From NCBI RefSeq assembly GCF_050920415.1, contig NZ_CP169309.1: 64,000 nucleotides of DNA. The stretch is one strand, 5' to 3'. A program made the position numbers and the translations under genes. The notes beneath the pieces were generated by a model. The model saw only the letters and a list, made by a program, of their open reading frames with translations, did no database searches and was not told the origin of the DNA. Positions 2,380-34,921 of the stretch are shown here, one piece after another (within the stretch, counting starts at the first letter, position 1; each line of letters opens with the position of its first letter). Origin of the DNA: Escherichia coli (GTDB lineage: Bacteria > Pseudomonadota > Gammaproteobacteria > Enterobacterales > Enterobacteriaceae).

Positions 2380-3057
2380 ATGAAAATTAATAATGTAGCG
2401 TTACCAATATCTCTTGCTGTAATCCTAACTGGTTGCGTGCCACATGCTTCTAACCGAAATATCACTGCTATTGAAGTGGTGAAGCCTGCTATTGGGCAAA
2501 GTGCTACCGCCTACATGGGCGATCCCATTATCACATCTGCTACTGGATTTAAAACGGACGTACTAGAACTTGGTGCGGCTAATGGTGCATTGTCTTCTAT
2601 CGCTGCTGGTACATATTGCAGTGAGGGGAATGGAATTTACCGCAATTATCATAACCCTCAAGCTGTTGCGTTAAAAAATCTCTATGGGCAAATCGGTAAC
2701 TATGTTGATTATGTTAGTTACGATGCTGCAAAAAATGAGATATCACCGCCAAATGGTACTTCTTATACTGCATCAGAAATTTCTATCAAACGTGTTCCTG
2801 ATGGGCTGTGTCGAGTTAGTAACTCATTGGTTAAGACTATCGAATACAATGGAAATGCAGGCGGTGTAATGAAGTTCACCTATCGTGAATTTGCAAACGA
2901 TATGGCTCGTGCAGCATTTACAACAGATTTTTCTGTAGATTCTAAGGGAAGTGACGTTATCGCTTACAAAGGTGCCAAGTTCAAAGTGAACAAGGCTGAT
3001 AACTCGTCTATTTCTTATACAATTATTTCTGGCTTTGACAAGGCTGTCACGTTCTAG
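2380..3057 (+). CDS. orphan lipoprotein (225 aa), unknown function
   Basis: Signal peptide MKINNVALPISLAVILTG followed by Cys (lipobox LTGC); AT-rich relative to phage backbone; ORF-track start 2326 trimmed to ATG 2380. Confidence 0.6.
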   Translation: MKINNVALPISLAVILTGCVPHASNRNITAIEVVKPAIGQSATAYMGDPIITSATGFKTDVLELGAANGALSSIAAGTYCSEGNGIYRNYHNPQAVALKNLYGQIGNYVDYVSYDAAKNEISPPNGTSYTASEISIKRVPDGLCRVSNSLVKTIEYNGNAGGVMKFTYREFANDMARAAFTTDFSVDSKGSDVIAYKGAKFKVNKADNSSISYTIISGFDKAVTF

Positions 3058-3161
3058 GTTTCACGCTTACTGAGTATGTTACGATTTTGCACATTCTGCA
3101 TAAGCGCGCATGTCTATGCTGCATGAGATCGCATGATCGTTTGAGGATCTTTTGTGTTAAG

Positions 3162-3186
3162 GCCCGCCAGTTCTGGCGGGCTTTTG
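3162..3186 (+). terminator. rho-independent terminator
   Basis: gcccgcca-gttc-tggcgggc hairpin followed by ttttg. Confidence 0.55.
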
Positions 3187-3230
3187 CGTAGATCATGCAG
3201 GTGCATGAAAACCACTACATAAAGCGGGCA

Positions 3231-4171: not shown

Positions 4172-5338
4172 AACAGCTCCTCATAGGCACTCAACGGCCT
4201 GTGTTCCACCTGACTGACCTGCTGCCAGAGTGGGGCGTGATGCTCCGGCACGGTCTGCCAGCCGTATACAGCCGAACAGAGACGGTGCGATGCTACCTGT
4301 TGCTCATTACTGTAGATCCGCAGTTCATCATCCAGCGAGATCCGTATTGATACCGGCTGGCCACACAGGCTTTCCGGCACGCTGTAACGGTTCCCGCCAA
4401 CCTCGATATAGCCATCCCAGGAGACATGACGGATATCGAAGTAGCTGGTATCGAAGTCCGTACCTGGCAGCGCCTGCAGATGCACCTGTTCCTGCGTGAA
4501 GCGCTGTTCCGGTGTCTGCCTGAACTGGCGAAGTCCCGCCTGTCGGCAACGTCAGCCATCCACTGCTCCAGTAGCTGATTAACATGGGCGAAGCTGTCGA
4601 ACCGGCGGTACCGGACGAAGAAGTTTTCCTTGAGGTATTTCACCATCCGTTCCACCTTACCTTTGGTTCTGGCCCTTCGTGGACGGCAGGCCCGTGGCAG
4701 GAAGCCATAGTGATGGCCAGCAGCAGGAACCCGGAGTTGAACACCACCTTCCCGTTGTTATTTTTCAGCACTGCGGCTTTCTGGTTATCGACCAGCACGG
4801 TTTTCACGCTGCCGCCGAAGTAGCGAAAGGCGCGGACCAGTGACTCATAGGTATGTTCAGCATCCTGCTTTGGTGCCGCGAAGACATGGAAGCGACGTGA
4901 GAACCCCAGCGTATTAACCGCGAAGTTAACCCTGCATCGTTGCCCGGCAACCTCAGCCTCAACTTCTCCCCAGTCATGCTGTAGCTGGTAACCGGGCTGA
5001 GTTTCGAAGCGAACCGTTTTCTTCGATGGCCGCATCTTACGTTTGGGCTGGATGTAGTAACGCAACATGGAACGGCCACCGGTATAACCCATCGCTTTGA
5101 TTTCCGCCAGGATGACCTCGCCGTTCCAGACATTCTCAGCCAGACGCATGTCGATATAGTCCATGAACGGCTTGAGTTTGGCCATTTTGTGGCGTGTTTT
5201 TCTGGCCGGAGGTTCCGGGTATTTCAGGTACCGTCTGACAGTCCGCTCAGAGCAACCAACCTGAGTGGCAATATCAACAATATACGCACCTTGCTGGCGC
5301 ATTTGCTTTATCATGTAAAAGTCCTCTCTGCTCAGCAT
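4168..5338 (-). pseudogene. istA: istA (IS21 transposase) split by at least two frameshifts
   Basis: Three consecutive ORF fragments (4640-5338, 4293-4655, 4168-4485) together cover an IstA-like protein. Confidence 0.6.
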
Positions 5339-7230: not shown

Positions 7231-8993
7231 AAAATCTCCACAATATTGCTGGTATTGGCGGATTCGCCCTGCAGCGGTTCGTTAAACAGTGCGTGCATCG
7301 TTGCCCAGGCCAGATCGGCGTGGCTGGCTTCTTCGCTGCGGCTGGCTTCATAGGTCGGGCGGTTGCCACTGGCGGTGGTGGCGCGACGGATTGCCATAAA
7401 GGACTGCGCTATGTCGGTGTGTCCGGCGTCAAACTCCAGACGGCGGTGGCTGATAATGTCGTAGGCCTTGAGTACCAGGGCGTTTTTAACGTTGGGGTTG
7501 TAGACAAACTCCCGGACGGCAGGAAAAAACGCTTTCACGTTCTCGTAAACCCCGTGACCAACGCCGGTTGAGTCGATACCGATATAGGTCACGTTGTACT
7601 GTTCGGTCAGTTTTTTGATGGCGTCAGCCTGGGCGCGGAAGTCCATTCCGCGCCACTGGTGACGCTCAAGAATGCGGAACTTACCGCCCGGCACGGCTGG
7701 CGGCGCCACCACCACGCATCCGGCGCTGTCGCCGTTCTGCGTACCTTTCGCCGGGTCATATCCGATCCACACTTCGCGCCAGCCAAACGGGCGCAGGGCC
7801 AGTGCATGAAAGTCGGTCCAGACTTCCCAACTGTCCACCATGCACGCCTGCAGCTCGCTGAGCGGGAACACGGACGCGAGATCGTCCACGAACTCGCACA
7901 TCAGCAGGTTCTGGTATTCGTCCGGGCTGTACTCCATGCGCAACTGGTCAAGGTCGAACAGGTTACAGCCGCCGCGCACCGCATCTTCCACGGTGACTAT
8001 CTGGCGGTACTGCCCGTCTGCGCACAGCAGGCCGGGGGCCAGATTGCTGTGGGACAGGTCGATGTCCACCTTATCGGCTTTGTTGCGCCCTCGGTTGAAC
8101 AGCGCACCGGACCAGAACGGATAAGCACTGTGTGTCAGGCTGGATGGCGTGGAAAAATAGGTTTGTCGCCATTTTTTGTGAATAGCCATACCGGAAGCCA
8201 CTTTGCGCAGCTCCTGGAATTTCGGTATCCAGAAATATTCATCCAGATACAGGTTGCCGTGGTAACTCTGGGCCGTGCGGGCATTGGTGCCGAGGAAGTA
8301 AAGCGTGGCCCCGTTAGGAAGCACCATCGGATCGCCTTTCAGCTCCACCTCGACTTCTTTGGCGAAGTCGATGATGTACTGCTTAAAGACGTGGGCCTGT
8401 GCCTTACTGGCGGAAAGGAAAATCTGGTTACGTCCGGTCAGCAGGGCGTCAATCAGGGCTTCACGGGCAAAGTAAAAGGTCGCGCCGATCTGGCGAGACT
8501 TCAGCAGGTTGCGGATGCGATTGGTTTTTCCGGCTTCCCACCAGTGGCGCTGGTAGTTGAACATGGAGGAATGGAAGATTTCTTCCAGCTTCTCAATCTG
8601 TTCATCGGTGAAAACATTCTTTTCCGGCTGACGGCGCGGCCCTTTGTTGCGGTTGGCGACGTTAGGGTTTAAGTCGGCTTCGTTGCCGCCATTGTTAAAC
8701 TTGCCGATCCGCGCGTGGCGCTCCGACTGGCGCGCCAGCAGGTCAATTTCTTTGAAATCTTTCCCTTCTTTGTGCTCCTTCATAATGAGCTGGCAGTAGC
8801 GGGCGGCGGTGGTGAGCTGCATCTGATCCAGCGGCCCATAGTCACCCCACTTGTCGCGTTTTTTCCAGCTGTGAACGGTTGCAACTTTCTCGCCCAGCAT
8901 TTCAGCAATGCGGGCTACGCGGTATCCCTGAAAGTACAGCAGCATGGCCTGCCGACGGGGATCGAGATCTGCGGGTGTCAGTGTGGTGTTCAT
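7227..8993 (-). CDS. terminase large (ATPase) subunit (P2 gpP-like)
   Basis: 588 aa; P2 P-like; downstream of divergent late promoter region. Confidence 0.9.
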   Translation of the reverse strand: MNTTLTPADLDPRRQAMLLYFQGYRVARIAEMLGEKVATVHSWKKRDKWGDYGPLDQMQLTTAARYCQLIMKEHKEGKDFKEIDLLARQSERHARIGKFNNGGNEADLNPNVANRNKGPRRQPEKNVFTDEQIEKLEEIFHSSMFNYQRHWWEAGKTNRIRNLLKSRQIGATFYFAREALIDALLTGRNQIFLSASKAQAHVFKQYIIDFAKEVEVELKGDPMVLPNGATLYFLGTNARTAQSYHGNLYLDEYFWIPKFQELRKVASGMAIHKKWRQTYFSTPSSLTHSAYPFWSGALFNRGRNKADKVDIDLSHSNLAPGLLCADGQYRQIVTVEDAVRGGCNLFDLDQLRMEYSPDEYQNLLMCEFVDDLASVFPLSELQACMVDSWEVWTDFHALALRPFGWREVWIGYDPAKGTQNGDSAGCVVVAPPAVPGGKFRILERHQWRGMDFRAQADAIKKLTEQYNVTYIGIDSTGVGHGVYENVKAFFPAVREFVYNPNVKNALVLKAYDIISHRRLEFDAGHTDIAQSFMAIRRATTASGNRPTYEASRSEEASHADLAWATMHALFNEPLQGESANTSNIVEIF

Positions 8994-9038
8994 GGCACAA
9001 ACCTACAGCCTTGAATGAAGGCTTTCCCCGCCTGCGGT

Positions 9039-9056
9039 TTGTGTGGTTGTCGGTAC
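9039..9056. promoter_or_regulatory. Ogr/Delta-type late promoter activator box (TGT-N12-ACA) in divergent P/O promoter region
   Basis: tgt-gtggttgtcggt-aca in the 142 bp intergenic region between terminase and scaffold genes. Confidence 0.4.
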
Positions 9057-9135
9057 AAATACCGCGCATTGTTTCACTGCCCCCATCACCGCAACCATAA
9101 GGCTCCAGTAAGTTTTTTCTAACGGAGCACGGCTC

Positions 9136-9969
9136 ATGACAGTGAAAGCAAAGCGTTTTCGCATCGGGGTGGAAGGTGCCACTACCGACGGACGCGAAAT
9201 CCAGCGTGAATGGCTGGAACAGATGGCAGCCAGCTACAACCCGGCGGTGTATACCGCGCTGATTAACCTTGAGCACATTAAGTCTTATCTGCCGGACAGC
9301 ACGTTTAACCGCTACGGCAAGGTGACGGCGCTGTTTGCTGAAGAAATCGCGGAAGGTCCGCTGGCAGGCAAGATGGCACTGTATGCCGACGTTGAGCCAA
9401 CGGAGTCCCTGGTGGAACTGGTGAAAAAAGGCCAGAAATTATTCACCTCTATGGAAGTCAGCCCGAAGTTTGCTGATACGGGCAAAGCCTACCTGGTCGG
9501 CCTGGCTGCCACTGATGATCCCGCCAGTCTGGGTACGGAAATGCTGACATTCAGCGCCAGTGCAGCCCATAACCCGCTGGCAAACCGCAAGCAGAATCCT
9601 GCCAATCTTTTTACCGCTGCAGAGGAAACGGTGATCGAACTGGAAGAAATCCAGGAGGACAAGCCGTCCCTGTTTGCCCGCGTCACGGCGCTGTTTACCA
9701 AAAAAGAGCAGTCCGATGACGTCCGGTTCTCTGATGTGCATAAGGCCGTGGAACTGGTCGCCACTGAGCAGCAGAACCTGAGCACGCGCACCGAAAAATC
9801 CCTGTCTGAGCAGGAAGAACGCCTGTCTGAGCTGGAGACTGCTCTGCAGGAGCAGCAAACCGCCTTTAACGAACTGGTGGATAAGCTGAGTCATGAAGAC
9901 AGCCGCCAGGACTACCGCCAGCGTGCAACAGGCGGCAACGCCCCCGCTGACACTCTGACCAATTGCTGA
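9136..9969 (+). CDS. capsid scaffolding protein (P2 gpO-like)
   Basis: 277 aa, position and similarity to P2 O. Confidence 0.85.
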   Translation: MTVKAKRFRIGVEGATTDGREIQREWLEQMAASYNPAVYTALINLEHIKSYLPDSTFNRYGKVTALFAEEIAEGPLAGKMALYADVEPTESLVELVKKGQKLFTSMEVSPKFADTGKAYLVGLAATDDPASLGTEMLTFSASAAHNPLANRKQNPANLFTAAEETVIELEEIQEDKPSLFARVTALFTKKEQSDDVRFSDVHKAVELVATEQQNLSTRTEKSLSEQEERLSELETALQEQQTAFNELVDKLSHEDSRQDYRQRATGGNAPADTLTNC

Positions 9970-9985
9970 TGGAGCATAAAACCCA

Positions 9986-11044
9986 ATGAAGAAGAATACC
10001 CGTTTTGCTTTTAACGCTTACCTGCAGCAACTGGCGCGTCTGAACGGTGTGGCAGTTGAGGAACTGTCCAGCAAGTTCACCGTAGAGCCGTCTGTGCAGC
10101 AGACGCTGGAAGACCAGATCCAGCAGTCCGCCGCTTTCCTGACGCTGATTAACGTCACGCCAGTGACTGAGCAGTCCGGTCAGCTGCTTGGATTGGGTGT
10201 TGGCAGCACCATTGCCGGAACCACTGACACCACCGCGAAAGAGCGTGAACCTGTCGATCCGACGCTGATGATCGATGTGGAATACAAATGCGAACAGACC
10301 AACTTTGACACGGTGCTGACCTACGCGAAGCTGGACCTGTGGGCGAAGTTTCAGGATTTCCAGGTGCGTATCCGTGACGCCATCGTGAAACGCCAGGCAC
10401 TGGACCGCATCATGATCGGCTTTAACGGCGTGAAGCGTGCGAAAACCTCCAACCGTAGCGAAAACCCGCTGCTGCAGGATGTGAACAAAGGCTGGCTGCA
10501 GAAAATCCGTGAGGATGCACCGGATCACGTCATGGGCAGCACCACCACGGGCGGTGAAACCACACCGGGTGCGGTGAAAGTCGGGAAAGGTGGCGAATAT
10601 GCCAACCTGGACGCCGTGGTGATGGATGCGGTCAATGAGCTTATCGACGTGGTCTACCAGGACGATGACGATCTGGTGGTGATTTGCGGTCGTGAGCTGC
10701 TGTCTGACAAGTATTTCCCGCTGGTCAACAAAGAGCAGGAAAACAGTGAAAAACTGGCTGCCGATATGATCATCAGTCAGAAACGCATGGGTGGCCTGCA
10801 GGCCGTGCGTGCGCCGTTCTTCCCGCCGAATGCGCTGCTGATCACCCGTCTGGATAACCTGTCCATTTACTGGCAGGAAGACACCCGCCGCCGTTCGGTT
10901 ATCGACAACCCGAAACGTGACCGGATTGAAAATTTTGAATCCGTTAACGAAGCCTATGTGGTTGAGGACTACCGCTGCGCCGCACTGGTGGAAAACATCC
11001 AGATTGGCGACTTCAGCGCCGCCGCAGCAGAAACCGGAGCGTAA
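9986..11044 (+). CDS. major capsid protein (P2 gpN-like)
   Basis: 352 aa, P2 N-like. Confidence 0.9.
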   Translation: MKKNTRFAFNAYLQQLARLNGVAVEELSSKFTVEPSVQQTLEDQIQQSAAFLTLINVTPVTEQSGQLLGLGVGSTIAGTTDTTAKEREPVDPTLMIDVEYKCEQTNFDTVLTYAKLDLWAKFQDFQVRIRDAIVKRQALDRIMIGFNGVKRAKTSNRSENPLLQDVNKGWLQKIREDAPDHVMGSTTTGGETTPGAVKVGKGGEYANLDAVVMDAVNELIDVVYQDDDDLVVICGRELLSDKYFPLVNKEQENSEKLAADMIISQKRMGGLQAVRAPFFPPNALLITRLDNLSIYWQEDTRRRSVIDNPKRDRIENFESVNEAYVVEDYRCAALVENIQIGDFSAAAAETGA

Positions 11045-11047
11045 ACC

Positions 11048-11698
11048 ATGAGCCTGAGTCCCGCACGGCAGCATCGCCTGCGCGTTCAGGCTGAACAGGC
11101 CGCCCGCGAGGGCGGCAGCGTTCGCCACGCGTCGGGCTATGACCTGATGCTGCTGCAACTGGCAGAAGACCGCCGCCGTCTCAAGGGCGTTCAGTCCACG
11201 GTCAAAAAAGCGGAAATCAAGGTGGAGCTGCTGCCGAAATACGCCGCCTGGGCGGAGGGTGTCCTGGCTGCCGGAGGCGCTCAACAGGATGACGTGCTGA
11301 TGTACGTGATGCTGTGGCGCATTGATGCCGAAGATTATGTCGGAGCGCTGGAGATCGGGCGTCATGCCCTGCGTCATGGCTGGGTGATGCCGCTGGGTAA
11401 CCGCAACGTGCAGACCGTGCTGGCAGAGGAAATGGCAGACGCAGCGCAGAGCGCAATGCTTGCCACTACCGGCTTTGATGTCGATCTGCTGCTGCAGACG
11501 CTGGAGCTGACAGACGGTCTGGATATGCCGGACCAGTCACGGGCGCGTCTGCATAAAGCGATTGGCGCTGTCCTGAGTGAAAGTAATCCGGCTTCCGCCC
11601 TTAATCATCTCAACCATGCGTTACAGCTCGATCCCCGCTGTGGCGTGAAAAAAGACAAACAGCAGCTGGAGCGCAGACTGCGCAATGACAGCCGCTGA
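11048..11698 (+). CDS. terminase small (endonuclease) subunit (P2 gpM-like)
   Basis: 216 aa, position after capsid gene. Confidence 0.85.
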   Translation: MSLSPARQHRLRVQAEQAAREGGSVRHASGYDLMLLQLAEDRRRLKGVQSTVKKAEIKVELLPKYAAWAEGVLAAGGAQQDDVLMYVMLWRIDAEDYVGALEIGRHALRHGWVMPLGNRNVQTVLAEEMADAAQSAMLATTGFDVDLLLQTLELTDGLDMPDQSRARLHKAIGAVLSESNPASALNHLNHALQLDPRCGVKKDKQQLERRLRNDSR

Positions 11699-11793
11699 CA
11701 GAACGTGCCCCCGCGCACGGGCGGCACGGGGTGGCGAAAGGCACTGCCACATCAAAACCCCGTCCACCGCCCTTTATTTCAGGAGAAAGCAGC

Positions 11794-12258
11794 ATGAAGT
11801 TTGTTGCGCCAGAACAGGCACCGGAACAGGCGGAAATCATCAGAAATACGCCGTTCTGGCCTGATGTGGACCTGTCGGAGTTTCGCAGTGTCATGCGCAC
11901 TGACGGCACGGTGACGCAGCCGCGTTTAAAGCAGGTTGCGCTGTCGGCAATTTCGGAGGTCAACGCAGAGCTGTATGAGTTTCGCAGACGCCAGCAGATG
12001 CTGGGGTATGCCTCGCTGGCAGAAGTCCCGGCGGAACAACTGGACGGCAAAAGCGAGCGCATTCAGCACTATTTCAACGCGGTTTACTGCTGGGCACGCG
12101 CCATGCTCAACGAACGTTACCAGGACTATGACGCCACGGCATCCGGTGCGAAGCGAGGCGAGGAACTGGCGGAAGCAAGCGGTGATTTATGGCGTGACGC
12201 CCGCTGGGCCATCAGCCGGGTGCAGGATGCGCCGCACTGCACAGTGGAGCTTATCTGA
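11794..12258 (+). CDS. head completion/stabilisation protein (P2 gpL-like)
   Basis: Start set at ATG 11794 (MKFVAPEQ) preceded by aggag RBS; ORF-track start 11731 is probably upstream read-through. Confidence 0.8.
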   Translation: MKFVAPEQAPEQAEIIRNTPFWPDVDLSEFRSVMRTDGTVTQPRLKQVALSAISEVNAELYEFRRRQQMLGYASLAEVPAEQLDGKSERIQHYFNAVYCWARAMLNERYQDYDATASGAKRGEELAEASGDLWRDARWAISRVQDAPHCTVELI

Positions 12259-12461
12259 TGAAAGTGCGTGCGCATCAGTATGACACGGTGGACGCACTTT
12301 GCTGGCGTCATTACGGGCGCACGCAGGGTGTCACGGAGCAGGTACTGAAGGCAAATCCGGGGCTTGCCGAATACGGCCCCTTTTTACCTCACGGGCTGCA
12401 GGTGGAGCTGCCGGACATTCCGACAACCACCACCGTGCAGACCGTCCAGCTATGGGACTGA
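12258..12461 (+). CDS. tail protein X (P2 gpX-like)
   Basis: 67 aa, same size and position as P2 X. Confidence 0.7.
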   Translation: MKVRAHQYDTVDALCWRHYGRTQGVTEQVLKANPGLAEYGPFLPHGLQVELPDIPTTTTVQTVQLWD

Positions 12462-12464
12462 ATT

Positions 12465-12680
12465 ATGACGCTTGAGCGAATCAGCGCCTTTATCACGTAT
12501 TGCATCGCCGTCGTGCTGGCCTGGCTGGGCGATTTGTCCATCAAGGATGCCTCAACGCTGGGCGGCCTGATGATTGGTGTGCTGATGCTGGCTATCAACT
12601 GGTACTACAAACACAAAGCCTACCAGCTTCTGCGCGACGGGCAGATTTCGCGGGAGGACTATGAATCCATCAATCGTTAA
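12465..12680 (+). CDS. holin (small, two predicted TM segments; pinholin-like)
   Basis: 71 aa with two hydrophobic stretches and charged C-terminus; immediately upstream of SAR endolysin. Confidence 0.6.
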   Translation: MTLERISAFITYCIAVVLAWLGDLSIKDASTLGGLMIGVLMLAINWYYKHKAYQLLRDGQISREDYESINR

Positions 12681-13176
12681 ACGCTGCCTTGTCGGAGCCG
12701 TGCTGGCTATTGCTGCCACGCTGCCGGGGTTTCAGCAGCTTCACACCTCCGTGGAGGGGCTGAAACTGATTGCCGATTACGAAGGTTGTCGTCTGCAGCC
12801 GTATCAGTGCAGCGCGGGTGTCTGGACCGACGGCATTGGAAATACGTCGGGCGTCATTCCCGGCAAAACAATCACGGAACGACAGGCAGCAGAAGGGCTT
12901 ATTTCCAACGTGCTGCGTGTGGAGCGGGCGCTGGAAAGGTGTGTGAAGCAACAGCCGCCGCAGAAGGTATATGACGCTACGGTGTCGTTTGCCTTCAACG
13001 TGGGAACGGGCAATGCCTGCAGTTCTACGCTGGTGAAATTGCTCAATCAGCGGCGCTGGGCAGAAGCGTGCCGACAGTTGCCGCGCTGGGTTTATGTGAA
13101 AGGTGTGTTTAATCAGGGGCTGGATAACCGCCGTGCGCGGGAGATGGCCTGGTGCCTTAAAGGAGCTGGATTATGA
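12661..13176 (+). CDS. SAR endolysin (GH24 lysozyme with N-terminal signal-anchor-release domain)
   Basis: N-terminal weakly hydrophobic Ala/Gly-rich segment CLVGAVLAIAATLPGF; E-8aa-C-5aa-T catalytic spacing (YEGCRLQPYQCSAGVWT). Confidence 0.75.
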   Translation: MNPSIVKRCLVGAVLAIAATLPGFQQLHTSVEGLKLIADYEGCRLQPYQCSAGVWTDGIGNTSGVIPGKTITERQAAEGLISNVLRVERALERCVKQQPPQKVYDATVSFAFNVGTGNACSSTLVKLLNQRRWAEACRQLPRWVYVKGVFNQGLDNRRAREMAWCLKGAGL

Positions 13177-13601
13177 CGCGTGCGCTGGCGGTAGTGGCGG
13201 CGCTGGCACTCGTTGCGCTGGGCTGGCAGTCGTGGCGGCTTAACAGCGCCAGCCACACCATCGAAACGCAGCGCGCGGCGCTGAAAAGTAAAGCGCACGA
13301 ACTAACGAAGAAAAATAGCCAGCTGATCAGTCTGTCCATTCTGGCTGAAACCAATAACAGGGAGCAGGCGCGGCTCTATGCCGAAGCAGAACAGACCAGC
13401 GCGCTGCTGAGACAACGACAACACCGGATCGAGGAACTGAAACGTGAGAACGAGGATTTACGCCGCTGGGCTGATACTCCTTTGCCTGCTGACATTATCC
13501 GGCTGCGGGAACGTCCGGCACTCACCGGAGGTGCAGCTTACCGTCAGTGGTTGTCCGCGAGTGACGCCGTGTCGGCTGGAGCAGGCAGCGCCGCGCACTA
13601 A
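13173..13601 (+). CDS. i-spanin (LysB/Rz-like)
   Basis: 142 aa, N-terminal TM, coiled-coil-like; start overlaps endolysin stop (ATGA). Confidence 0.6.
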   Translation: MTRALAVVAALALVALGWQSWRLNSASHTIETQRAALKSKAHELTKKNSQLISLSILAETNNREQARLYAEAEQTSALLRQRQHRIEELKRENEDLRRWADTPLPADIIRLRERPALTGGAAYRQWLSASDAVSAGAGSAAH

Positions 13602-13734
13602 CGGTGATCTGAACGCATTGCTGGATGAAACGGAGGCCGCCTGGGCGGTCTGTGCAGACAAAGTGGACATGATTATTGCGTGTCAGGAGCGAAACAGTGA
13701 ACAAACCACAATCCCTGCGCCACGCCCTCAATAA
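13444..13734 (+). CDS. o-spanin lipoprotein (LysC/Rz1-like), overlapping i-spanin in +1 frame
   Basis: 96 aa with lipobox LTLSGC; begins inside the i-spanin gene. Confidence 0.55.
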   Translation: MRTRIYAAGLILLCLLTLSGCGNVRHSPEVQLTVSGCPRVTPCRLEQAAPRTNGDLNALLDETEAAWAVCADKVDMIIACQERNSEQTTIPAPRPQ

Positions 13735-14128
13735 AGCAGTGCCTTATGTCCGCAATAACCCGGATAAGCTGCATCTGTTTGTGGATAACGGTTCGCTGGT
13801 TGCCACGGGGGCCAGCTCCATGTCATGGGAGTACCGTTATACCCTCAACGTGGTGATTGAGGATTTCAGCGGCGACCAGAATCTGCTGATGGCCCCGGTT
13901 TTGCTGTGGCTGCGTGATAACCAGCCCGATGCCATCAATAATCCGGCGTTACGGGAAAAGTTATTCACCTTTGAGGTGGATATTCTGCGCAACGATGTCT
14001 GTGATATCAGCCTCAACCTGCAACTGACGGAACGTGTGCTGGTCAGCACTGACGGAAGTGTGTCGAGCGTTGAAGCAGTAGCGGAACCCGATGAACCTGA
14101 AGAAATGTGGACGGTGAAACGTGGCTGA
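13697..14128 (+). CDS. tail completion protein R (P2 gpR-like)
   Basis: Similarity to P2 R (NPDKLHLFVDNGS, RYTLNV motifs); GTG start at 13697 after ggagcg RBS. Confidence 0.8.
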   Translation: MNKPQSLRHALNKAVPYVRNNPDKLHLFVDNGSLVATGASSMSWEYRYTLNVVIEDFSGDQNLLMAPVLLWLRDNQPDAINNPALREKLFTFEVDILRNDVCDISLNLQLTERVLVSTDGSVSSVEAVAEPDEPEEMWTVKRG

Positions 14129-14573
14129 ACTGCAGAAGGTGGACGACTGGCTGAGTGCTTTGCTGGCGAATCTGGAACCAGCCGCAAGAAGCCGAATGAT
14201 GCGCCAGCTGGCGCAGGAACTGCGCCGGACACAGCAGCAGAATATCAGGATGCAGCGCAATCCAGATGGCAGCAGTTATGAGCCGCGCAGGGTAACAGCA
14301 CGCAGCAAGAAGGGGCGCATCAAACGTCAGATGTTTGCAAAGCTGCGCACCACAAAATACCTGAGAACTGCCGCCAGCGCGGATTCTGCCAGCGTACAGT
14401 TTGAAGGTAAGGTACAGCGTATTGCCCGTGTTCATCACTACGGTCTGCGCGATCGCGTCAGTCCAAAGGGGGGAGTCATTAAGTATCCATCCCGAAAATT
14501 GCTGGGTTTAAATGAACATACTGAAAATGAAGTAAGAGATTTACTTTTAAAGTATTTATTGATGAAAAATTAG
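14121..14573 (+). CDS. tail completion protein S (P2 gpS-like)
   Basis: 150 aa; last ~30 codons are AT-rich and abut a convergent AT-rich orphan gene. Confidence 0.8.
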   Translation: MAELQKVDDWLSALLANLEPAARSRMMRQLAQELRRTQQQNIRMQRNPDGSSYEPRRVTARSKKGRIKRQMFAKLRTTKYLRTAASADSASVQFEGKVQRIARVHHYGLRDRVSPKGGVIKYPSRKLLGLNEHTENEVRDLLLKYLLMKN

Positions 14574-14578
14574 AATGT

Positions 14579-15109
14579 TTACGCTCTTAATAAACTTAAA
14601 TAACTTTTTATGCTTTGGCAAAAAGGGAAAAGGTCTATTTTAATTTTCCAGTTTTTTTTGTTTTGAACCCCAGAAGCAATAATAGAACCGTCCCAATATT
14701 TTATTCCATTTTTGCCGGTCTTTTTTGTTAACTCAAAACTTAATGCGTGAATAATTTTATTGCAGCATTCGCGTATAGAATCTTTAACATGACCATCTAT
14801 AACAAAAAGTATATTTTCATGTTCTTCAAATGCTTCTTTCTCAGGTGAGTAATCTGGGTTCCACTCATGTTCACTAGTGTCTTGGAGAATTCGTAGTTTT
14901 GTACAAAGGCTAATAAGATTGTTGCTAATGGTATATTCCAACCATCCGTTGTACGATAACTCCTCCATTTCAAATTCAGTTACTATAGAACCATCATATA
15001 CTTTCTGTGTGGAATATATACGCTGTAAATAAAATTCAGATGAACAGCATAATTGCTCAATTATTCTTGCGTGTTCTTCTATAGCGTAATAATCAATTGG
15101 ATGGCTCAT
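14579..15109 (-). CDS. AT-rich orphan gene antisense to the late operon (176 aa, no recognised domain)
   Basis: ORF on minus strand between S and V; aaagg RBS before ATG (MSHPIDYY); markedly AT-rich; ends 5 bp from S stop. Confidence 0.55.
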   Translation of the reverse strand: MSHPIDYYAIEEHARIIEQLCCSSEFYLQRIYSTQKVYDGSIVTEFEMEELSYNGWLEYTISNNLISLCTKLRILQDTSEHEWNPDYSPEKEAFEEHENILFVIDGHVKDSIRECCNKIIHALSFELTKKTGKNGIKYWDGSIIASGVQNKKNWKIKIDLFPFCQSIKSYLSLLRA

Positions 15110-15140
15110 TCTTTTACCTTTCTTTGATTGGAATTGTATT

Positions 15141-15158
15141 TGTGTCATTTACCACACA
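15141..15158 (+). promoter_or_regulatory. Ogr/Delta-type late promoter box (TGT-N12-ACA) upstream of V
   Basis: tgt-gtcatttaccac-aca ~50 bp upstream of V start. Confidence 0.4.
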
Positions 15159-15204
15159 AGGACGTATTGATGCCATAGATTCAAGGTCCGTGCAACCTAA
15201 CCCT

Positions 15205-15783
15205 ATGAACGCACAACTAACCGAAATCATGCGCCTTATCACCAACCTGATCCGCACTGGTGTAGTCACCGAAGTGGACCGGGAAAACTGGCTTTGCCGG
15301 GTTAAAACGGGCGAGCTTGAAACCAACTGGATCAGCTGGCTGACGCTGCGTGCCGGGAATGCCCGCACATGGTGGCGACCATCGGAAGGTGAGCAGGTGG
15401 TGCTGCTGAGTCTGGGCGGCAATCTGGAAACTGCCTTTGCGCTGCCCGCTGTCTATTCGAATCAGTTCGCACCACCGTCGACGTCGGCAGACGCCTGCGT
15501 GACAGAACATCCTGACGGCGGCTGGTTTGAATACGAACCCACTACCGGGCGCTGGTATGTCAGGGGCATCAAATCAATGGTCATTGAGGCCGCTGACAAC
15601 ATCACCATGAAAACCAGTGAGTTTGTACTGGAGGCTGACCGCACGCGCATTAACAGCGAAGTGGTGATCAATGGTGGCGTTACCCAGGGCGGCGGAGCGA
15701 TGAGTTCTAACGGGATCGTGGTTGATGCGCATCAGCATACTGACGTCCTGAAAGGCGGCGACACAACCGGAGGCCCGGTATGA
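15205..15783 (+). CDS. baseplate spike/assembly protein V (P2 gpV-like)
   Basis: Similarity to P2 V; start set at ATG 15205 (MNAQLTEIMRL). Confidence 0.85.
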   Translation: MNAQLTEIMRLITNLIRTGVVTEVDRENWLCRVKTGELETNWISWLTLRAGNARTWWRPSEGEQVVLLSLGGNLETAFALPAVYSNQFAPPSTSADACVTEHPDGGWFEYEPTTGRWYVRGIKSMVIEAADNITMKTSEFVLEADRTRINSEVVINGGVTQGGGAMSSNGIVVDAHQHTDVLKGGDTTGGPV

Positions 15784-29026: not shown

Positions 29027-29389
29027 TGGTGGAGCTGGCGGGAGTTGAACCCGCGTCCGAAATTCCTACATCCTCGGTACTACATGCTTAGTCAGTCTTT
29101 ACATTCGCTTGCCAGCTGCGGACGGACACGCCACTAACAAACTAGCCTGATTAAGTTTTAACGCTTCAACCCCAGGCAGGGCTTCCACGCGATCTCTTTT
29201 GGGTTTGACCTCTCTTGATCCCCGTCCTAAGAGCGGAGGCTAGGGAGAGAGGGCTCTAAGCAGGTTATTAAGCTGCTAAAGCGTAGTTTTCGTCGTTTGC
29301 GACTATTTTTTGCGGCTTTTTACGAGGCCAACCGCCCCTCGGCATGCACCTTGGGTTTCGCAAATCCCGTCGAATCCAGAATCAGCCCC
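29027..29389 (-). ncRNA. ssrA: tmRNA (SsrA), 363 nt
   Basis: Reverse complement matches E. coli tmRNA from GGGGCUGAUUCUGG 5' end to GCCAGCUCCACCA 3' end, including tag-encoding region. Confidence 0.95.
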
Positions 29390-31377: not shown

Positions 31378-31525
31378 AGTGATTTGATTCCTTTTCGGGC
31401 CCGAGCAGTACGTGGCTCATCTGTAATATGCCGATGATAATAGACCTTTCATCACTTTAAAACCTTTTGCTTTCCGGTCTTACGGCGTTTTGCTGTTTAC
31501 TCTGACCGTGAAGCAGGAAAAAAGT

Positions 31526-33187
31526 TTACGCCGCAAGCAGTTCTTTCGCATTCGCCAGTGTGTTACGTGTGACTTCACTGCCACCAAGCAGGCGCGCCAG
31601 CTCTTGTAACCGCGCTTTTTTGTCCAGCGACTCCATATGCGTTTCTGTCATCGCACCATCGGTTTCTTTGCTGACAAAATAGTGTTGATGACCACATCCC
31701 GCGACTTGTGGCAGGTGGGTAACACACATCACCTGAGTTGATTCGCCGAGTTGACGCAGCAGTTTGCCGACAACTGCCGCTGTTGGACCGCTAATCCCTA
31801 CATCCACTTCATCAAAAATCAGTGCCGGGGTTTCCATTTTACGCGCTGTGATGACCTGAATTGCCAATGCGATGCGGGACAATTCACCACCAGATGCGAC
31901 TTTGGCAATAGGCTGCATTGGCTGACCTGGGTTGGTGGTTACCCGAAACTCAATACGATCAGCGCCGTCAGCGCCCAGGTGATGCTCGTCAAATTTAACA
32001 TCAATCGTAAACTGCCCATGCGGCATAGAGAGTGCATGCATACTGTCGGTGATCAGCTGTGCCAACTCATTTGCATAATGCTGGCGTTGCTGGTGTAACG
32101 CGCGCGCCGTTTCCAGTGCCTGCTGATGATGTTTCGTTACCGCCAGCGCGAGCGTTTCTTGTGAGTCGGCCTGATTGTCCAGTTGCTGCTGCTCTTCCAG
32201 TAGCGACTGGTAATACTGTGGCAATACCTCAGGGCTGACGTGATGTTTACGTGCCAGCGAAATCTGTTTTGAGATGCGCTGTTCAAGTTCAAACAGTCGG
32301 TTGGGATCGAGATCCAGACGATCGCAGTAGTGGCGTAGTTCGTCGCTGGCTTCAACAATCTGGATGGTAGCTTCTTCCAGCATATCAAGTACGCCGGACA
32401 GTTTGCTGTCCATGCCAATCAATTCGCTCACCAGTTGTTTAGCCGTGTAAAGCTGACTTTGCAGGTTTGCGTCTTCGCCGTCGGCCATTAATGCCAATGC
32501 ATTCTGGCTGGTGGTCAGCAATTGACCGCTGTTCGCCAGACGTTTGTACTCTTCGTCGATTTGCTCAAACTCTCCGGGCTGCGGATTAAATTCGTTCAGT
32601 TCTTTTAATTGGTATTGCAGCAGCTCCGCACGAGCGGCGCGTTCCTGACTTAACTGTTGATGATGCGCGAGGTCGCGGCAGCTTTGATGCCACAACTGAT
32701 AACGTGCGGTCATTTCCTGAAGCAGAGAGGTTTCATTGGCATAGCCATCAAGCAGGAATTTTTGGTGCTCGGGTTTGGTGAGTAATTGATGGGCGTGCTG
32801 ACCATGGATCTGAATGAGCAACTGGCCCAGTTCGCGCAGTTGTGACAGTGGAACAGCTGTACCGTTGATAAAACCACGAGAGCGACCATCGCTACTGATT
32901 ACGCGACGAAGCAGGCATTCACGGCCATCTTCCAGTTGGTTTTCTTCCAGCCAGCGCAGTGCTGCGGGTGTATCTTTCAGAGAAAAACGGGCGCACAGAT
33001 CTGCGCGAGCAGCGCCGGTACGCACCATGTCGGCTTCAGCGCGACCGCCGAGACAAAGGCCCAGGGCATCTATTGCAATAGATTTACCCGCGCCAGTCTC
33101 GCCGGTGATTACGGTCATGCCGCTGTGAAAATCAATCTCAAGCTCACGAACGATAGCAAAGTTGCTGATGGTCAGTTGTGCCAACAT
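31526..33187 (-). CDS. recN: DNA repair protein RecN
   Basis: 553 aa, Walker [12 protein letters not shown]-like. Confidence 0.95.
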
Positions 33188-33213
33188 AGTTGTTTTCCTG
33201 TATGAAAAACCAT

Positions 33214-33255
33214 TACTGTTATTGTGTACAGTATAAACTGGTTTTATATACAGTA
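33214..33255 (-). promoter_or_regulatory. tandem LexA boxes in recN promoter
   Basis: tactgttattgtgtacagta (33214-33233) and aactggttttatatacagta (33236-33255) fit CTGT-N8-ACAG. Confidence 0.7.
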
Positions 33256-33272
33256 AAGAGGCTGGCGTAAAA

Positions 33273-34151: not shown

Positions 34152-34197
34152 TTTTCCGAGGTCCTTGTTGCGAAGATTGATGACAATGTGAGTGCTT

Positions 34198-34230
34198 CCC
34201 TTGAAACCCTGAAACTGATCCCCATAATAA
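34198..34230 (+). promoter_or_regulatory. sigma32 heat-shock promoter of grpE
   Basis: cccTTGAAA -35 and CCCCATAAT -10 with ~13 bp spacer, ~45 bp upstream of grpE. Confidence 0.55.
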
Positions 34231-34240
34231 GCGAAGTTAG

Positions 34241-34867
<627 letters not shown>

Positions 34868-34921
34868 TTTCTGCTTTCGTAATAAATCACGGCCCAGCAT
34901 GCGAATGCCGGGCCGTTTTCG

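What the first reader, a model, noticed from the sequence alone, without database searches (positions are those of the whole stretch)
12465..13734. Pinholin + SAR-endolysin + overlapping spanins in a P2-type backbone
The lysis cassette is of the phage 21 type: a 71-aa two-TM holin and an endolysin with an N-terminal signal-anchor-release segment and E-8aa-C-5aa-T catalytic spacing. This differs from the P2 Y/K/lysA arrangement, although the LysB/LysC-like overlapping spanins are retained, indicating modular exchange of the lysis genes.
Basis: partly seen in the sequence, partly recalled or inferred. Interest (0 to 1): 0.35.

Follow-up and report, generated by a model that had tools for sequence, protein, structure and literature searches.

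The report
Ordinary Fels-2-type prophage lysis cassette
This is the intact four-gene cell-bursting cassette (small holin, membrane-tethered lysozyme, two overlapping spanins) of a P2-family prophage nearly identical to phage Cartapus of E. coli LF82; it is real, but already annotated in about a fifth of complete E. coli genomes.

Summary
There are four overlapping genes: a holin (12465-12680, 71 aa, two hydrophobic segments), a GH24 endolysin (12661-13176, N-terminal signal-anchor-like segment, E41-8aa-C50-5aa-T56), LysB (13173-13601) and LysC (13444-13734). LysC starts in the +1 frame inside lysB and ends beyond it.

The cassette is 99.8% identical to Escherichia phage Cartapus, a Fels-2-like P2-family prophage of E. 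coli LF82. It occurs in 1037 of 5426 complete E. coli genomes, where it is annotated as "HP1 family phage holin / lysozyme / LysB / LysC".

- The holin is a remote homologue of the phage 21 pinholin (same PHROG; hhalign E 3.5e-6). However, its first transmembrane segment is strongly hydrophobic and there is no dual start, so "pinholin" remains an inference.
- The endolysin is of the P1 Lyz type, not the R21 type. Its best solved relative is 1XJT, and three cysteines matching P1 C13/C44/C51 are invariant across P2-like genera.
- Holin and endolysin are unrelated to P2 Y/K, while the flanking genes and spanins are P2 homologues. The swapped unit is therefore holin plus endolysin.
- The lysA homologue present in close relatives is missing here.

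Verdict: already known, low interest.

The parts
12258..12461 (+). Tail protein X gene (left flank of the cassette; P2 gpX homologue)
   Evidence: Pfam Phage_tail_X E 2e-34. 61% identical to P2 X over 67/67 aa.
12465..12680 (+). Class II holin, 71 aa, two hydrophobic segments (residues 6-22 and ~32-48). Single ATG start, preceded in frame by the TGA of gene X. Probable pinholin.
   Evidence: Pfam PF16080 (HP1 holin family) 36.7 bits, above cut-off 28.8. PF04971 (P21 holin S) 23.2 bits, below cut-off 26. PHROG 20 E 2e-26, the same PHROG as S21-68 and HP2 Hol. hhalign to S21-68: probability 87.6%, E 3.5e-6. Hydropathy. 100% identical to the Cartapus holin and 80% to the Fels-2 'lysis protein, 2 transmembrane domains'.
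12661..13176 (+). GH24 (T4-lysozyme-fold) SAR-type endolysin, 171 aa, P1 Lyz type
   Evidence: Pfam Phage_lysozyme E 3e-40. Best solved relative is P1 Lyz 1XJT at E 3e-26, versus R21 3HDE at E 2e-17. 37% identical to a P1-like Lyz over 172 aa including the N-terminus. A GGGAGGA Shine-Dalgarno sequence lies just upstream of the ATG.
12661..12732 (+). Codons 1-24 of the endolysin: MNPSIVKR-CLVGAVLAIAATL-PGF. This is the signal-anchor-release-like segment, with Cys9 at its N-terminal edge.
   Evidence: The 13-residue uncharged core contains 6 Gly/Ala/Thr and follows K7R8. S-I-V-K-R-C and the hydrophobic core are conserved in five P2-like genera, with many synonymous codon changes.
12781..12828 (+). 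Catalytic motif E41 (12781-12783) - 8 aa - C50 (12808-12810) - 5 aa - T56 (12826-12828), with Cys43 (12787-12789) in between
   Evidence: Read directly from the sequence. Aligned residue by residue with the P1 Lyz stretch EGCRRDPYMCPAGVWT.
13173..13601 (+). lysB: i-spanin (Rz-like), 142 aa, with an N-terminal TM segment and a coiled-coil periplasmic part
   Evidence: NCBIfam TIGR03495 phage_LysB 176.9 bits (cut-off 92.75). PHROG 89 E 1.5e-46. 36% identical to P2 LysB over the C-terminal 76 aa. TM segment.
13444..13734 (+). lysC: o-spanin (Rz1-like) lipoprotein, 96 aa, GTG start, +1 frame inside lysB. It extends 133 nt past the lysB stop and into gene R. Lipobox LSGC, with Cys21 at 13504-13506.
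   Evidence: NCBIfam NF038368 P2_Rz1 124.7 bits (cut-off 27). Pfam LysC E 1.5e-15. 42% identical to P2 LysC over 92 aa from the same start: MRTRIYAAG versus MRTKIFAAG.
13169..13176 (+). Junction where relatives (Wadgaonvirus 500465-1, vB_EcoM-813R9, Fels-2) carry an extra ~376 bp. In the first two this encodes a 125-aa, four-TM LysA-family protein. It is absent here and in Cartapus.
   Evidence: MAFFT alignment places the whole insertion after window position 13169. Gene tables. The 125-aa protein and P2 LysA both fall in PHROG 162.
13697..14128 (+). Tail completion gene R (right flank). The GTG start at 13697 gives the same 38-nt overlap with lysC as in P2. Cartapus is annotated from the TTG at 13676.
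   Evidence: Pfam P2_Phage_GpR E 4e-47. 54% identical to P2 R. P2 coordinates.

Best explanation
This is the complete late-operon lysis cassette of a Fels-2-like, P2-family (Peduoviridae, Elveevirus) prophage integrated at ssrA in an E. coli chromosome. It is essentially phage Cartapus of strain LF82.

Inferred mechanism, by homology:
1. The 171-aa GH24 endolysin is exported by Sec. It stays tethered to the inner membrane by a short, Ala/Gly-rich N-terminal signal-anchor-release segment.
2. While tethered it is inactive, as in P1 Lyz. The catalytic Cys50 is locked in a disulfide with Cys43, and Cys9 at the cytoplasmic edge of the anchor stays reduced.
3. The 71-aa two-TM class II holin accumulates in the membrane and triggers at a set time. 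It probably forms small depolarising holes (a pinholin). The resulting collapse of the proton-motive force releases the anchor.
4. Cys9 then attacks the Cys43-Cys50 disulfide, frees Cys50, and the enzyme degrades the murein.
5. LysB (inner-membrane i-spanin) and LysC (outer-membrane lipoprotein o-spanin) then disrupt the outer membrane.

No antiholin is identifiable: there is no dual start and no lysA homologue.

Shown here: gene structure, family membership, conserved residues, distribution.
Inferred: export route, disulfide switch, hole size.
For: - Gene structure and family hits.
- Identity to known phage: 99.8% nucleotide identity to Cartapus, with holin, endolysin and LysB annotated there.
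- Distribution: the same cassette is in 1037 of 5426 complete E. coli genomes, named 'HP1 family phage holin', 'lysozyme', 'LysB' and 'LysC' by PGAP.
- Host and integration site: the flank is E. coli recN-nadK-grpE-yfjD and the prophage ends at the tmRNA gene.
- Endolysin: best PDB relative is P1 Lyz 1XJT (E 3e-26), with E41/C43/C50/T56 aligned. C9, C43 and C50 are invariant in Fels-2, Dagavirus, Yersinia, EtG and Midge homologues. They match P1 C13/C44/C51 and HP2 C4/C42/C49, whereas R21 has none and has Asp at the catalytic position. N-terminal codons are conserved with synonymous changes.
- Holin: same PHROG as S21-68 and the HP1/HP2 holin; hhalign E 3.5e-6 to S21-68.
- Experimental precedent: the HP1 cassette, in a P2-family phage, was characterised as pinholin plus SAR endolysin (PMC7312051).
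- Published modelling: a 95%-identical Klebsiella KP12 endolysin was modelled on 1XJT with TM-score 0.83 and called a SAR endolysin with P2-type overlapped spanins (PMC9902359).
- Curated annotation: the Center for Phage Technology annotates the Midge homologues as 'holin class II', 'SAR endolysin', 'putative antiholin', 'i-spanin' and 'o-spanin'.
- Function: Cartapus is spontaneously induced and releases encapsidated genomes from LF82 (PMC9928086).
Against: - No experiment exists on this holin or endolysin.
- Holin TMD1 (ISAFITYCIAVVLAWLG) is strongly hydrophobic: Kyte-Doolittle 2.12 and summed Hessa -0.56. S21 TMD1 scores 0.49 (best 17-residue window) and +8.55 (full 22-residue TMD1). The S21 mechanism, in which TMD1 leaves the bilayer, is therefore not supported by sequence.
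- The holin scores below the Pfam P21-holin cut-off. BLAST finds no similarity to S21 and only E 0.86 to HP2 Hol.
- The endolysin's hydrophobic core is only 13-16 residues, against 19 in P1 Lyz and R21. Its Cys lies at the edge of the segment rather than in the middle as in P1.
- The KP12 authors obtained only a low-confidence heptamer model for what is probably the homologous holin in that cassette (peg.320; PMC9902359).
- TM and signal-peptide predictors proper were not available.
Confidence: 0.88

Rival explanations
1. The holin is a canonical large-hole class II holin rather than a pinholin. The SAR endolysin would still be released by the depolarisation that follows triggering, as P1 Lyz is with LydA.
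For: - TMD1 is as hydrophobic as an ordinary TM helix and far more so than the SAR-like TMD1 of S21-68.
- There is no dual-start antiholin, unlike S21.
- P1 shows that a SAR endolysin can work with canonical holins (PMC9025707).
- The TMD2 small-residue pattern is not conserved across the family.
Against: - It shares a PHROG and shows profile-level homology with two experimentally supported pinholins, S21-68 and HP1 Hol (PMC7312051).
- It is tightly coupled to a SAR endolysin by overlapping genes.
- SAR endolysin genes usually adjoin pinholin genes (PMC9239132, PMC9025707).
Confidence: 0.3
2. The endolysin N-terminus is a cleavable Sec signal peptide. The enzyme would be secreted as a soluble periplasmic protein and controlled in some other way.
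For: - The hydrophobic core is only 13 residues after K7R8 and is followed by Pro-Gly, dimensions typical of a signal-peptide h-region.
- T4 RI was reclassified from SAR to a cleavable signal (PMC8385771, listed).
Against: - No Ala-X-Ala-type site follows the Pro-Gly; this was read from the sequence, with no predictor available.
- Cys9 in this segment is invariant across five genera together with Cys43 and Cys50. That pattern only makes sense if the segment stays on the mature enzyme, as in P1 Lyz.
- The similarly short HP1 N-terminus behaves as a SAR endolysin experimentally (PMC7312051).
Confidence: 0.08
3. The cassette was recently imported from a lambdoid, phage-21-like phage into a P2 backbone.
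For: - It has the same functional layout (two-TM holin, SAR endolysin) and shares PHROG 20 with S21-68.
Against: - BLAST detects no similarity between this holin and S21.
- The endolysin is closer to P1 Lyz than to R21, and R21 lacks the cysteines.
- The spanins are P2-type overlapped, not the embedded type of phage 21.
- All listed phage records carrying this holin are P2-like, with the gene next to X.
- S21-type holins were found mainly in lambdoid and Stx phages.
- Holin/endolysin divergence between P2-like genera tracks backbone divergence.
Confidence: 0.03
4. The cassette is a decaying remnant in a cryptic prophage and no longer functions.
For: - The lysA-family gene found in relatives is missing.
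- The prophage is cut by the left edge of the window, so its completeness cannot be judged here.
Against: - All four reading frames are intact and 99.8-100% identical to those of Cartapus, which produces encapsidated genomes in LF82.
- lysA-less versions also occur in complete phages of other genera: Yersinia vB_YenM_56.17 and Klebsiella ST13-OXA48phi12.1.
- P2 lysA is annotated as nonessential.
Confidence: 0.03

Closest known systems
Escherichia phage Cartapus (LF82 prophage 4; Peduoviridae, Elveevirus) and Salmonella phage Fels-2
   Same: Cartapus is 99.8% identical in nucleotides over X through lysC, with holin and endolysin 100% identical in protein. It has the same four-gene layout without lysA. 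Fels-2 has the same order, with holin 80% and endolysin 92% identical. Its annotation reads 'putative holin, 2 transmembrane domains', 'similar to Lyz of P1', 'P2 LysB-like' and 'P2 LysC-like'.
   Different: Fels-2 and Wadgaonvirus relatives carry an extra ~376 bp between the endolysin and lysB. In Wadgaonvirus this is a LysA-family gene; in Fels-2 it is annotated as two short ORFs. The Cartapus RefSeq record does not annotate lysC. The Fels-2 endolysin is annotated from an internal start that removes the SAR segment.
Phage P1 Lyz (SAR endolysin activated by disulfide isomerisation; PDB 1XJT/1XJU)
   Same: It is the best solved relative (E 3e-26, 37% identity). It shares the GH24 domain and the E-8-C-5-T motif with a catalytic Cys. 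It also shares the Cys two residues after the Glu and a Cys in the N-terminal hydrophobic segment.
   Different: The hydrophobic segment is shorter here (13-16 versus 19 residues), and the Cys sits at its N-terminal edge (C9 after KR) rather than mid-helix (C13). A ~11-residue loop of P1/HP1 Lyz is absent. The genomic context also differs, since P1 lyz is not in a holin-endolysin-spanin cassette.
Phage 21 S21-68/R21/Rz-Rz1 (the pinholin-SAR endolysin paradigm)
   Same: It has a two-TM class II holin of about 70 aa immediately upstream of a SAR GH24 endolysin, followed by a two-component spanin. The holins share PHROG 20 and align by hhalign (34% over 47 columns, E 3.5e-6).
   Different: - S21 has a dual start (S71 antiholin) and a Gly/Ser/Ala-rich TMD1 that is 6 residues longer in the alignment.
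- R21 uses a catalytic Asp and has no regulatory cysteines.
- Phage 21 Rz1 is embedded in Rz, whereas here lysC is overlapped.
- This holin scores below the Pfam P21-holin cut-off.
Haemophilus phage HP1/HP2 hol-lys (P2-family; experimentally a pinholin plus SAR endolysin)
   Same: It is a P2-family phage with a small holin lacking a dual start, overlapping a P1-Lyz-like endolysin. That endolysin has a short N-terminal hydrophobic segment carrying a Cys near its start (C4) plus C42/C49, and is followed by a LysB-like gene. The window holin passes the Pfam HP1-family model, and PGAP names it 'HP1 family phage holin'.
   Different: Direct similarity of the holins is negligible (BLAST E 0.86; hhalign probability 4%). 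The endolysins are 34% identical. The HP1 cassette sits after the tail tube gene, not after X.
Phage P2 Y-K-lysA-lysB-lysC
   Same: It occupies the same position in the late operon, between X and R. lysB/lysC are homologous with the same overlapped architecture and the same 38-nt lysC-R overlap. LysC is 42% and LysB 36% identical.
   Different: P2 Y is a three-TM holin (PHROG 175), and K is an endolysin of another family (PHROG 90) with no N-terminal hydrophobic segment. Neither is detectably similar to the genes here. P2 has lysA and this window does not.

Membership tests
Phage 21 S-type pinholin (Pfam PF04971 / PHROG 20 / holin superfamily II) | Small protein with two transmembrane segments and a charged C-terminus | tested here: met
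   71 aa. Hydrophobic segments at residues 6-22 and ~32-48, with a charged C-terminal tail. Hydropathy scales only; no TM predictor was available.
Phage 21 S-type pinholin (Pfam PF04971 / PHROG 20 / holin superfamily II) | Sequence-family membership | tested here: inconclusive
   PF04971 scores 23.2 bits, below the curated cut-off of 26, and BLAST to S21 finds nothing. On the other hand it shares PHROG 20 with S21-68, and hhalign gives 87.6% probability, E 3.5e-6.
Phage 21 S-type pinholin (Pfam PF04971 / PHROG 20 / holin superfamily II) | Weakly hydrophobic, SAR-like TMD1 able to leave the bilayer | tested here: not met
   TMD1 has Kyte-Doolittle mean 2.12 and summed Hessa -0.56. S21 TMD1 scores 0.49 (best 17-residue window) and +8.55 (full 22-residue TMD1). 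The other five P2-like homologues score 1.54-2.42.
Phage 21 S-type pinholin (Pfam PF04971 / PHROG 20 / holin superfamily II) | Dual-start motif giving an antiholin | tested here: not met
   There is a single ATG at 12465, and the in-frame codons upstream are ATT then TGA. Phage 21 has the S71/S68 dual start.
Phage 21 S-type pinholin (Pfam PF04971 / PHROG 20 / holin superfamily II) | Forms nanometre-scale holes that depolarise the membrane but do not pass proteins | not testable with these tools
   Needs lysis or complementation and leakage assays.
HP1 holin family (Pfam PF16080) | Score above the curated Pfam cut-off | tested here: met
   36.7 bits versus cut-off 28.8, E 4e-9, covering profile positions 3-54 of 56. 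PGAP names the identical gene 'HP1 family phage holin'. Direct similarity to the HP2 holin itself is weak.
SAR endolysin, P1 Lyz type (GH24) | GH24 / Phage_lysozyme catalytic domain with the E-8aa-D/C-5aa-T motif | tested here: met
   PF00959 E 3e-40. E41, C50 and T56 align to P1 Lyz in 1XJT.
SAR endolysin, P1 Lyz type (GH24) | N-terminal uncharged segment rich in Gly/Ala/Ser/Thr, preceded by basic residues, with no cleavage region | tested here: met
   After K7R8 comes CLVGAVLAIAATL, with 6 of 13 residues Gly/Ala/Thr, then PGF. No Ala-X-Ala follows. Conserved across genera. It is shorter than in P1 and R21, and no SignalP or TMHMM run was possible.
SAR endolysin, P1 Lyz type (GH24) | Cysteine in the SAR segment, plus a cysteine two residues after the catalytic Glu, plus a catalytic Cys (disulfide-isomerisation switch) | tested here: met
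   C9, C43 and C50 are present and invariant in six P2-like homologues. P1 has C13/C44/C51 and HP2 has C4/C42/C49. The P1 mechanism itself (Xu et al. 2005, Science 307:113) is cited from my own knowledge; that paper was not held.
SAR endolysin, P1 Lyz type (GH24) | Sec-dependent export, membrane tethering in inactive form, and release on depolarisation | not testable with these tools
   Experimental. Shown for the HP1 homologue (PMC7312051) and for P1 Lyz.
R21-type SAR endolysin | Catalytic Asp in E-8-D-5-T, with regulation by SAR refolding and no cysteines | tested here: not met
   The window has Cys at the Asp position plus C9 and C43. R21 has none of these. R21 is a weaker PDB match than P1 Lyz.
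P2 LysB/LysC overlapped two-component spanin | i-spanin of the LysB family with an N-terminal TM segment | tested here: met
   TIGR03495 scores 176.9 bits against cut-off 92.75. TM segment at residues 1-17/4-22. 36% identical to P2 LysB.
P2 LysB/LysC overlapped two-component spanin | o-spanin of the LysC family with a lipoprotein signal (lipobox Cys) | tested here: met
   NF038368 scores 124.7 bits against cut-off 27. Lipobox L-S-G-C21 with Gly at +2. 42% identical to P2 LysC from the same start.
P2 LysB/LysC overlapped two-component spanin | Overlapped architecture: the o-spanin starts in the +1 frame inside the i-spanin gene and ends beyond it | tested here: met
   lysC spans 13444-13734 and lysB spans 13173-13601, giving a 158-nt overlap and a 133-nt extension. 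The architecture is defined in PMC6139136.
P2-type Y/K/LysA lysis genes | Homology of the holin to Y, of the endolysin to K, and presence of lysA | tested here: not met
   Holin versus Y: BLAST E 0.002 in a 10-sequence database and hhalign probability 1%. Endolysin versus K: E 0.13. They fall in different PHROGs (175 and 90 versus 20 and 7). There is no lysA-family gene between the endolysin and lysB.

The most novel reading that the evidence does not exclude
This P2-family branch of the S21/HP1 holin superfamily may trigger differently from S21-68. It combines a short but fully hydrophobic TMD1, no dual start and, in this variant, no LysA antiholin. It is paired with a P1-type cysteine-switch endolysin whose membrane anchor is unusually short (13-16 residues), with the switch cysteine at the cytoplasmic edge. 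If TMD1 does not leave the membrane, it could be a natural minimal holin-endolysin timer working by another route.
Probability: 0.2. Interest if true: 0.3.

Novelty: already known. Interest (0 to 1): 0.08.

Why it matters
It matters little as a discovery. The cassette is a textbook alternative lysis module of P2-family phages, already annotated in Fels-2, Cartapus, Midge and about 19% of complete E. coli genomes. Its class has been studied experimentally in HP1, P1 and phage 21.

Three points have modest practical value:
- It documents that the swapped unit within Peduoviridae is the holin+endolysin pair. The spanins and, in some lineages, lysA stay with the backbone.
- It flags annotation errors in reference records: a missing lysC and truncated endolysin starts that remove the SAR segment.
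- It points to a widespread, untested holin subfamily whose TMD1 does not look like that of the S21 paradigm.

Tried and rejected
- BLASTP of the holin against S21-71, HP2 Hol and P2 Y gave nothing for S21 and E 0.86 for HP2. For P2 Y it gave E 0.002 or 5.5e-4 in databases of only 10 or 5 sequences. I rejected that hit as hydrophobic-segment noise, because hhalign gives 1% probability and the PHROGs differ.
- I considered filing the holin simply as 'HP1 family'. The Pfam cut-off is met, but direct profile comparison with the HP2 holin is weak, while S21-68 aligns better. I therefore describe it as a separate branch of the same superfamily.
- The promoter/terminator consensus scan of 8900-15300 found 4 promoter-like and 7 terminator-like sites, against 3.8 and 7.6 expected from shuffles. 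It gives no evidence of internal signals, which fits one late operon.
- The primary papers on P1 Lyz and R21 regulation (PMC404059, PMC2953681, PMC3075974) were not held. The residue-level P1 mechanism is therefore cited from my own knowledge.
- PMC12626290 and PMC8986868 were checked for Fels-2 or 186-type lysis gene data and held nothing relevant.
- No structure prediction was run. Sequence matches to solved structures were already decisive, and a published AlphaFold model exists for a 95%-identical protein.
- The neighbouring AT-rich ORF 14579-15148 was screened against Pfam, NCBIfam, PADLOC and PDB without a meaningful hit.
Full report
**1. Observation**

The four reading frames are present exactly as described.
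- The holin gene spans 12465-12680 (71 aa).
- The endolysin gene spans 12661-13176 (171 aa) and overlaps the holin gene by 20 nt.
- lysB spans 13173-13601 (142 aa) and starts in an ATGA overlap with the endolysin stop.
- lysC spans 13444-13734 (96 aa, GTG start). It begins in the +1 frame inside lysB, shares 158 nt with it, and runs 133 nt beyond its stop into tail gene R.

Shine-Dalgarno-like sequences precede the endolysin (GGGAGGA), lysB (GGAG) and lysC (GAGGAA) starts.

Every product has strong family matches.
- Pfam assigns Phage_lysozyme (E 3e-40), LysC (E 1.5e-15) and Phage_holin_2_3 (E 4e-9, above its cut-off).
- PHROGs assigns holin, endolysin and Rz-like spanin families, with E from 2e-26 to 8e-69.
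- The NCBIfam equivalog models for LysB and LysC are passed by wide margins.

The flanks are P2-type head and tail genes. Pfam assigns Phage_GPL, Phage_tail_X, P2_Phage_GpR and Phage_tail_S. These genes are 39-61% identical to P2 L, X, R and S.

**2. What the window is**

The stretch from X through lysC is 99.8% identical to Escherichia phage Cartapus (Peduoviridae, Elveevirus). It is 92-97% identical to many Klebsiella and Escherichia P2-like phages. Cartapus covers 81% of window 1-25000 at 99.3% identity.

Cartapus is prophage 4 of the adherent-invasive E. coli LF82. [quoted passage not shown]

In the window the prophage ends next to the tmRNA gene at 29027-29389. The DNA beyond it is E. coli recN-nadK-grpE-yfjD.

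The cassette occurs in 1037 of 5426 complete E. coli genomes. NCBI's pipeline already names the genes there "HP1 family phage holin", "lysozyme", "LysB" and "LysC".

**3. The endolysin**

- The closest solved structures are the two forms of P1 Lyz (1XJT E 3e-26, 1XJU E 8e-25). R21 is clearly weaker (3HDE/3HDF, E 2e-17).
- E41, C50 and T56 align with the E-8-C-5-T motif of P1 Lyz, and C43 aligns with the P1 cysteine two residues after the glutamate.
- The N-terminus reads MNPSIVKR-CLVGAVLAIAATL-PGF. That is two basic residues, then a 13-residue uncharged core with 6 Gly/Ala/Thr, then Pro-Gly with no Ala-X-Ala site after it.
- I aligned homologues from five further P2-like lineages: Fels-2, a Klebsiella Dagavirus, Yersinia vB_YenM_56.17, Erwinia EtG and Escherichia Midge. 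Endolysin identity to the window is 92% for Fels-2 and 63-64% for Yersinia and Midge.
- In that alignment the S-I-V-K-R-C motif, the hydrophobic core, C43 and C50 are all conserved. The N-terminal codons differ mostly by synonymous changes. The extension is therefore translated and under selection.
- P1 Lyz has C13/C44/C51 and HP2 Lys has C4/C42/C49. R21 has none of the three and has Asp at the catalytic position.

The enzyme is therefore a SAR-type GH24 endolysin of the cysteine-switch (P1 Lyz) kind, not the R21 kind. The switch mechanism itself comes from my own knowledge of Xu et al. 2005 (Science 307:113), because the primary papers were not held. In that mechanism an inhibitory disulfide on the catalytic Cys is resolved by the SAR-domain Cys after membrane release.

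Two features differ from P1. The anchor is shorter (13-16 versus 19 residues), and the Cys lies at its N-terminal edge, as in HP1/HP2 Lys.

**4. The holin**

Hydropathy gives two segments, ISAFITYCIAVVLAWLG (residues 6-22) and about LGGLMIGVLMLAINWYY (32-48), followed by a charged tail. The Fels-2 record notes "2 transmembrane domains" for the 80%-identical protein.

Evidence on family membership is mixed.
- It passes the Pfam HP1-holin model (36.7 bits versus cut-off 28.8).
- It falls short of the P21-holin model (23.2 bits versus cut-off 26).
- BLAST finds no similarity to S21 and only E 0.86 to HP2 Hol.
- PHROG 20 contains this holin (E 2e-26), S21-68 (E 6e-31) and HP2 Hol (E 1e-9).
- A profile of six P2-like holins aligns to S21-68 with 87.6% probability (E 3.5e-6, 34% identity over 47 columns). 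The same profile gives 4% against HP2 Hol and 1% against P2 Y.

It is therefore a remote homologue of the phage 21 pinholin.

Two S21 hallmarks are missing.
- There is no dual start. A single ATG is preceded in frame by ATT and then the TGA of gene X.
- TMD1 is 6 residues shorter in the alignment and strongly hydrophobic: Kyte-Doolittle 2.12 and summed Hessa -0.56. S21 TMD1 scores 0.49 (best 17-residue window) and +8.55 (full 22-residue TMD1).

"Pinholin" is thus the likeliest reading. It rests on homology to two experimentally supported pinholins, on tight coupling to a SAR endolysin, and on the general association stated in PMC9239132 and PMC9025707. It is not demonstrated, and the S21 activation route (TMD1 exit) is not supported by the sequence.

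**5. The spanins**

- LysB has an N-terminal TM segment. It is 36% identical to P2 LysB over its C-terminal half.
- LysC is 42% identical to P2 LysC from the same start (MRTRIYAAG versus MRTKIFAAG). It has a lipobox, LSGC21, with Gly at +2.
- The gene arrangement is the "overlapped" class defined with P2 as its type (PMC6139136).
- With R starting at the GTG at 13697, the lysC-R overlap is 38 nt, as in P2.

**6. Modular exchange**

Against P2, the window's proteins are 48% (M), 40% (L), 61% (X), 36% (LysB), 42% (LysC), 54% (R) and 39% (S) identical. The holin and endolysin have no significant match to Y or K.

The cleanest case is phage Midge or EtG against P2. Identities are M 69-72%, L 67%, X 73-75%, LysA 40-43%, LysB 61-62% and LysC 73%. 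Yet a class II holin and SAR endolysin sit in place of Y and K. The exchanged unit is therefore the holin+endolysin pair.

Between the window and Midge, the endolysin (64%) and holin (29%) have diverged about as much as the backbone (X 61%, M 50%, L 46%). All listed phage records carrying this holin are P2-like, with the gene next to X. S21-type holins were found mainly in lambdoid and Stx phages.

This argues for an old Peduoviridae module rather than a recent import from phage 21. Variable holin/endolysin/antiholin genes next to conserved LysB/LysC had already been described for Burkholderia P2-like phages (PMC3091744).

**7. The missing lysA**

Close relatives (Wadgaonvirus 500465-1, vB_EcoM-813R9) carry a 125-aa, four-TM protein between the endolysin and lysB. 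It falls in the same PHROG (162) as P2 LysA and Midge LysA. In Fels-2 the corresponding stretch is annotated as two short hypothetical ORFs.

The alignment places the whole ~376-bp difference after window position 13169. The first ~130 nt of lysB are then more diverged (56-73% identity versus 90-100% beyond).

About 780 E. coli genomes carry this gene, against 1037 carrying the cassette. lysA-less versions also occur in complete Yersinia and Klebsiella phages. Absence is therefore a common variant, and P2 lysA is annotated as nonessential. Together with the single start, no antiholin can be identified in this window.

**8. Prior knowledge and verdict**

- The HP1 cassette, from a P2-family phage, was characterised experimentally as pinholin plus SAR endolysin (PMC7312051).
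- The 95%-identical KP12 endolysin was modelled on P1 Lyz and described together with P2-type overlapped spanins (PMC9902359).
- Curated annotation of Midge lists holin class II, SAR endolysin, antiholin, i-spanin and o-spanin.

The feature itself is ordinary and already known. The only open point of modest interest is how this holin subfamily triggers, given its hydrophobic TMD1 and the absence of any antiholin.

Noticed in passing
window 14579-15148 (- strand): A 189-aa ORF with 32% GC lies among neighbours of 52-60% GC, between tail genes S and V (the position of P2 orf30). It has no Pfam, NCBIfam, PADLOC or meaningful PDB match. Its only hit is PHROG 18838, of unknown function (E 6e-136). 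It is present in Cartapus as a hypothetical protein and is probably a horizontally acquired cargo (moron) gene.
   Followed up: partly
L001 (Cartapus NC_070909) 4187-4477; L008 (Fels-2) 2697-3206; L003 (vB_EcoM-813R9) 1904-2416: Reference annotations are incomplete. The Cartapus RefSeq record has no lysC (o-spanin) CDS. The Fels-2 and vB_EcoM-813R9 endolysins are annotated from internal starts that remove the N-terminal SAR segment, including the conserved Cys9.
   Followed up: yes
window ~13169-13176; L002 2418-2795: There is a presence/absence polymorphism of a 125-aa four-TM LysA-family gene (NCBIfam DNZ54_00345 family, PHROG 162, mislabelled 'endolysin' in PHROGs and RefSeq). About 780 of the 1037 E. 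coli genomes with the cassette carry it. The junction coincides with a more diverged 5' part of lysB, which suggests a recombination boundary.
   Followed up: partly
window 29027-29389 (- strand) and 31500-35000: A tmRNA (ssrA) gene with tag ANDENYALAA marks the right end of the prophage, followed by E. coli recN-nadK-grpE-yfjD. The prophage runs off the left edge of the window, whose first ORFs lie in the replication-gene region.
   Followed up: partly
L009 (Yersinia vB_YenM_56.17) 1795-2016: The homologous holin in the Yersinia phage begins MGLKMEK, that is Met1...Lys4-Met5. This looks like a dual-start (antiholin/holin) motif, which the window's holin lacks. Regulation therefore appears to differ within the family.
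   Followed up: no
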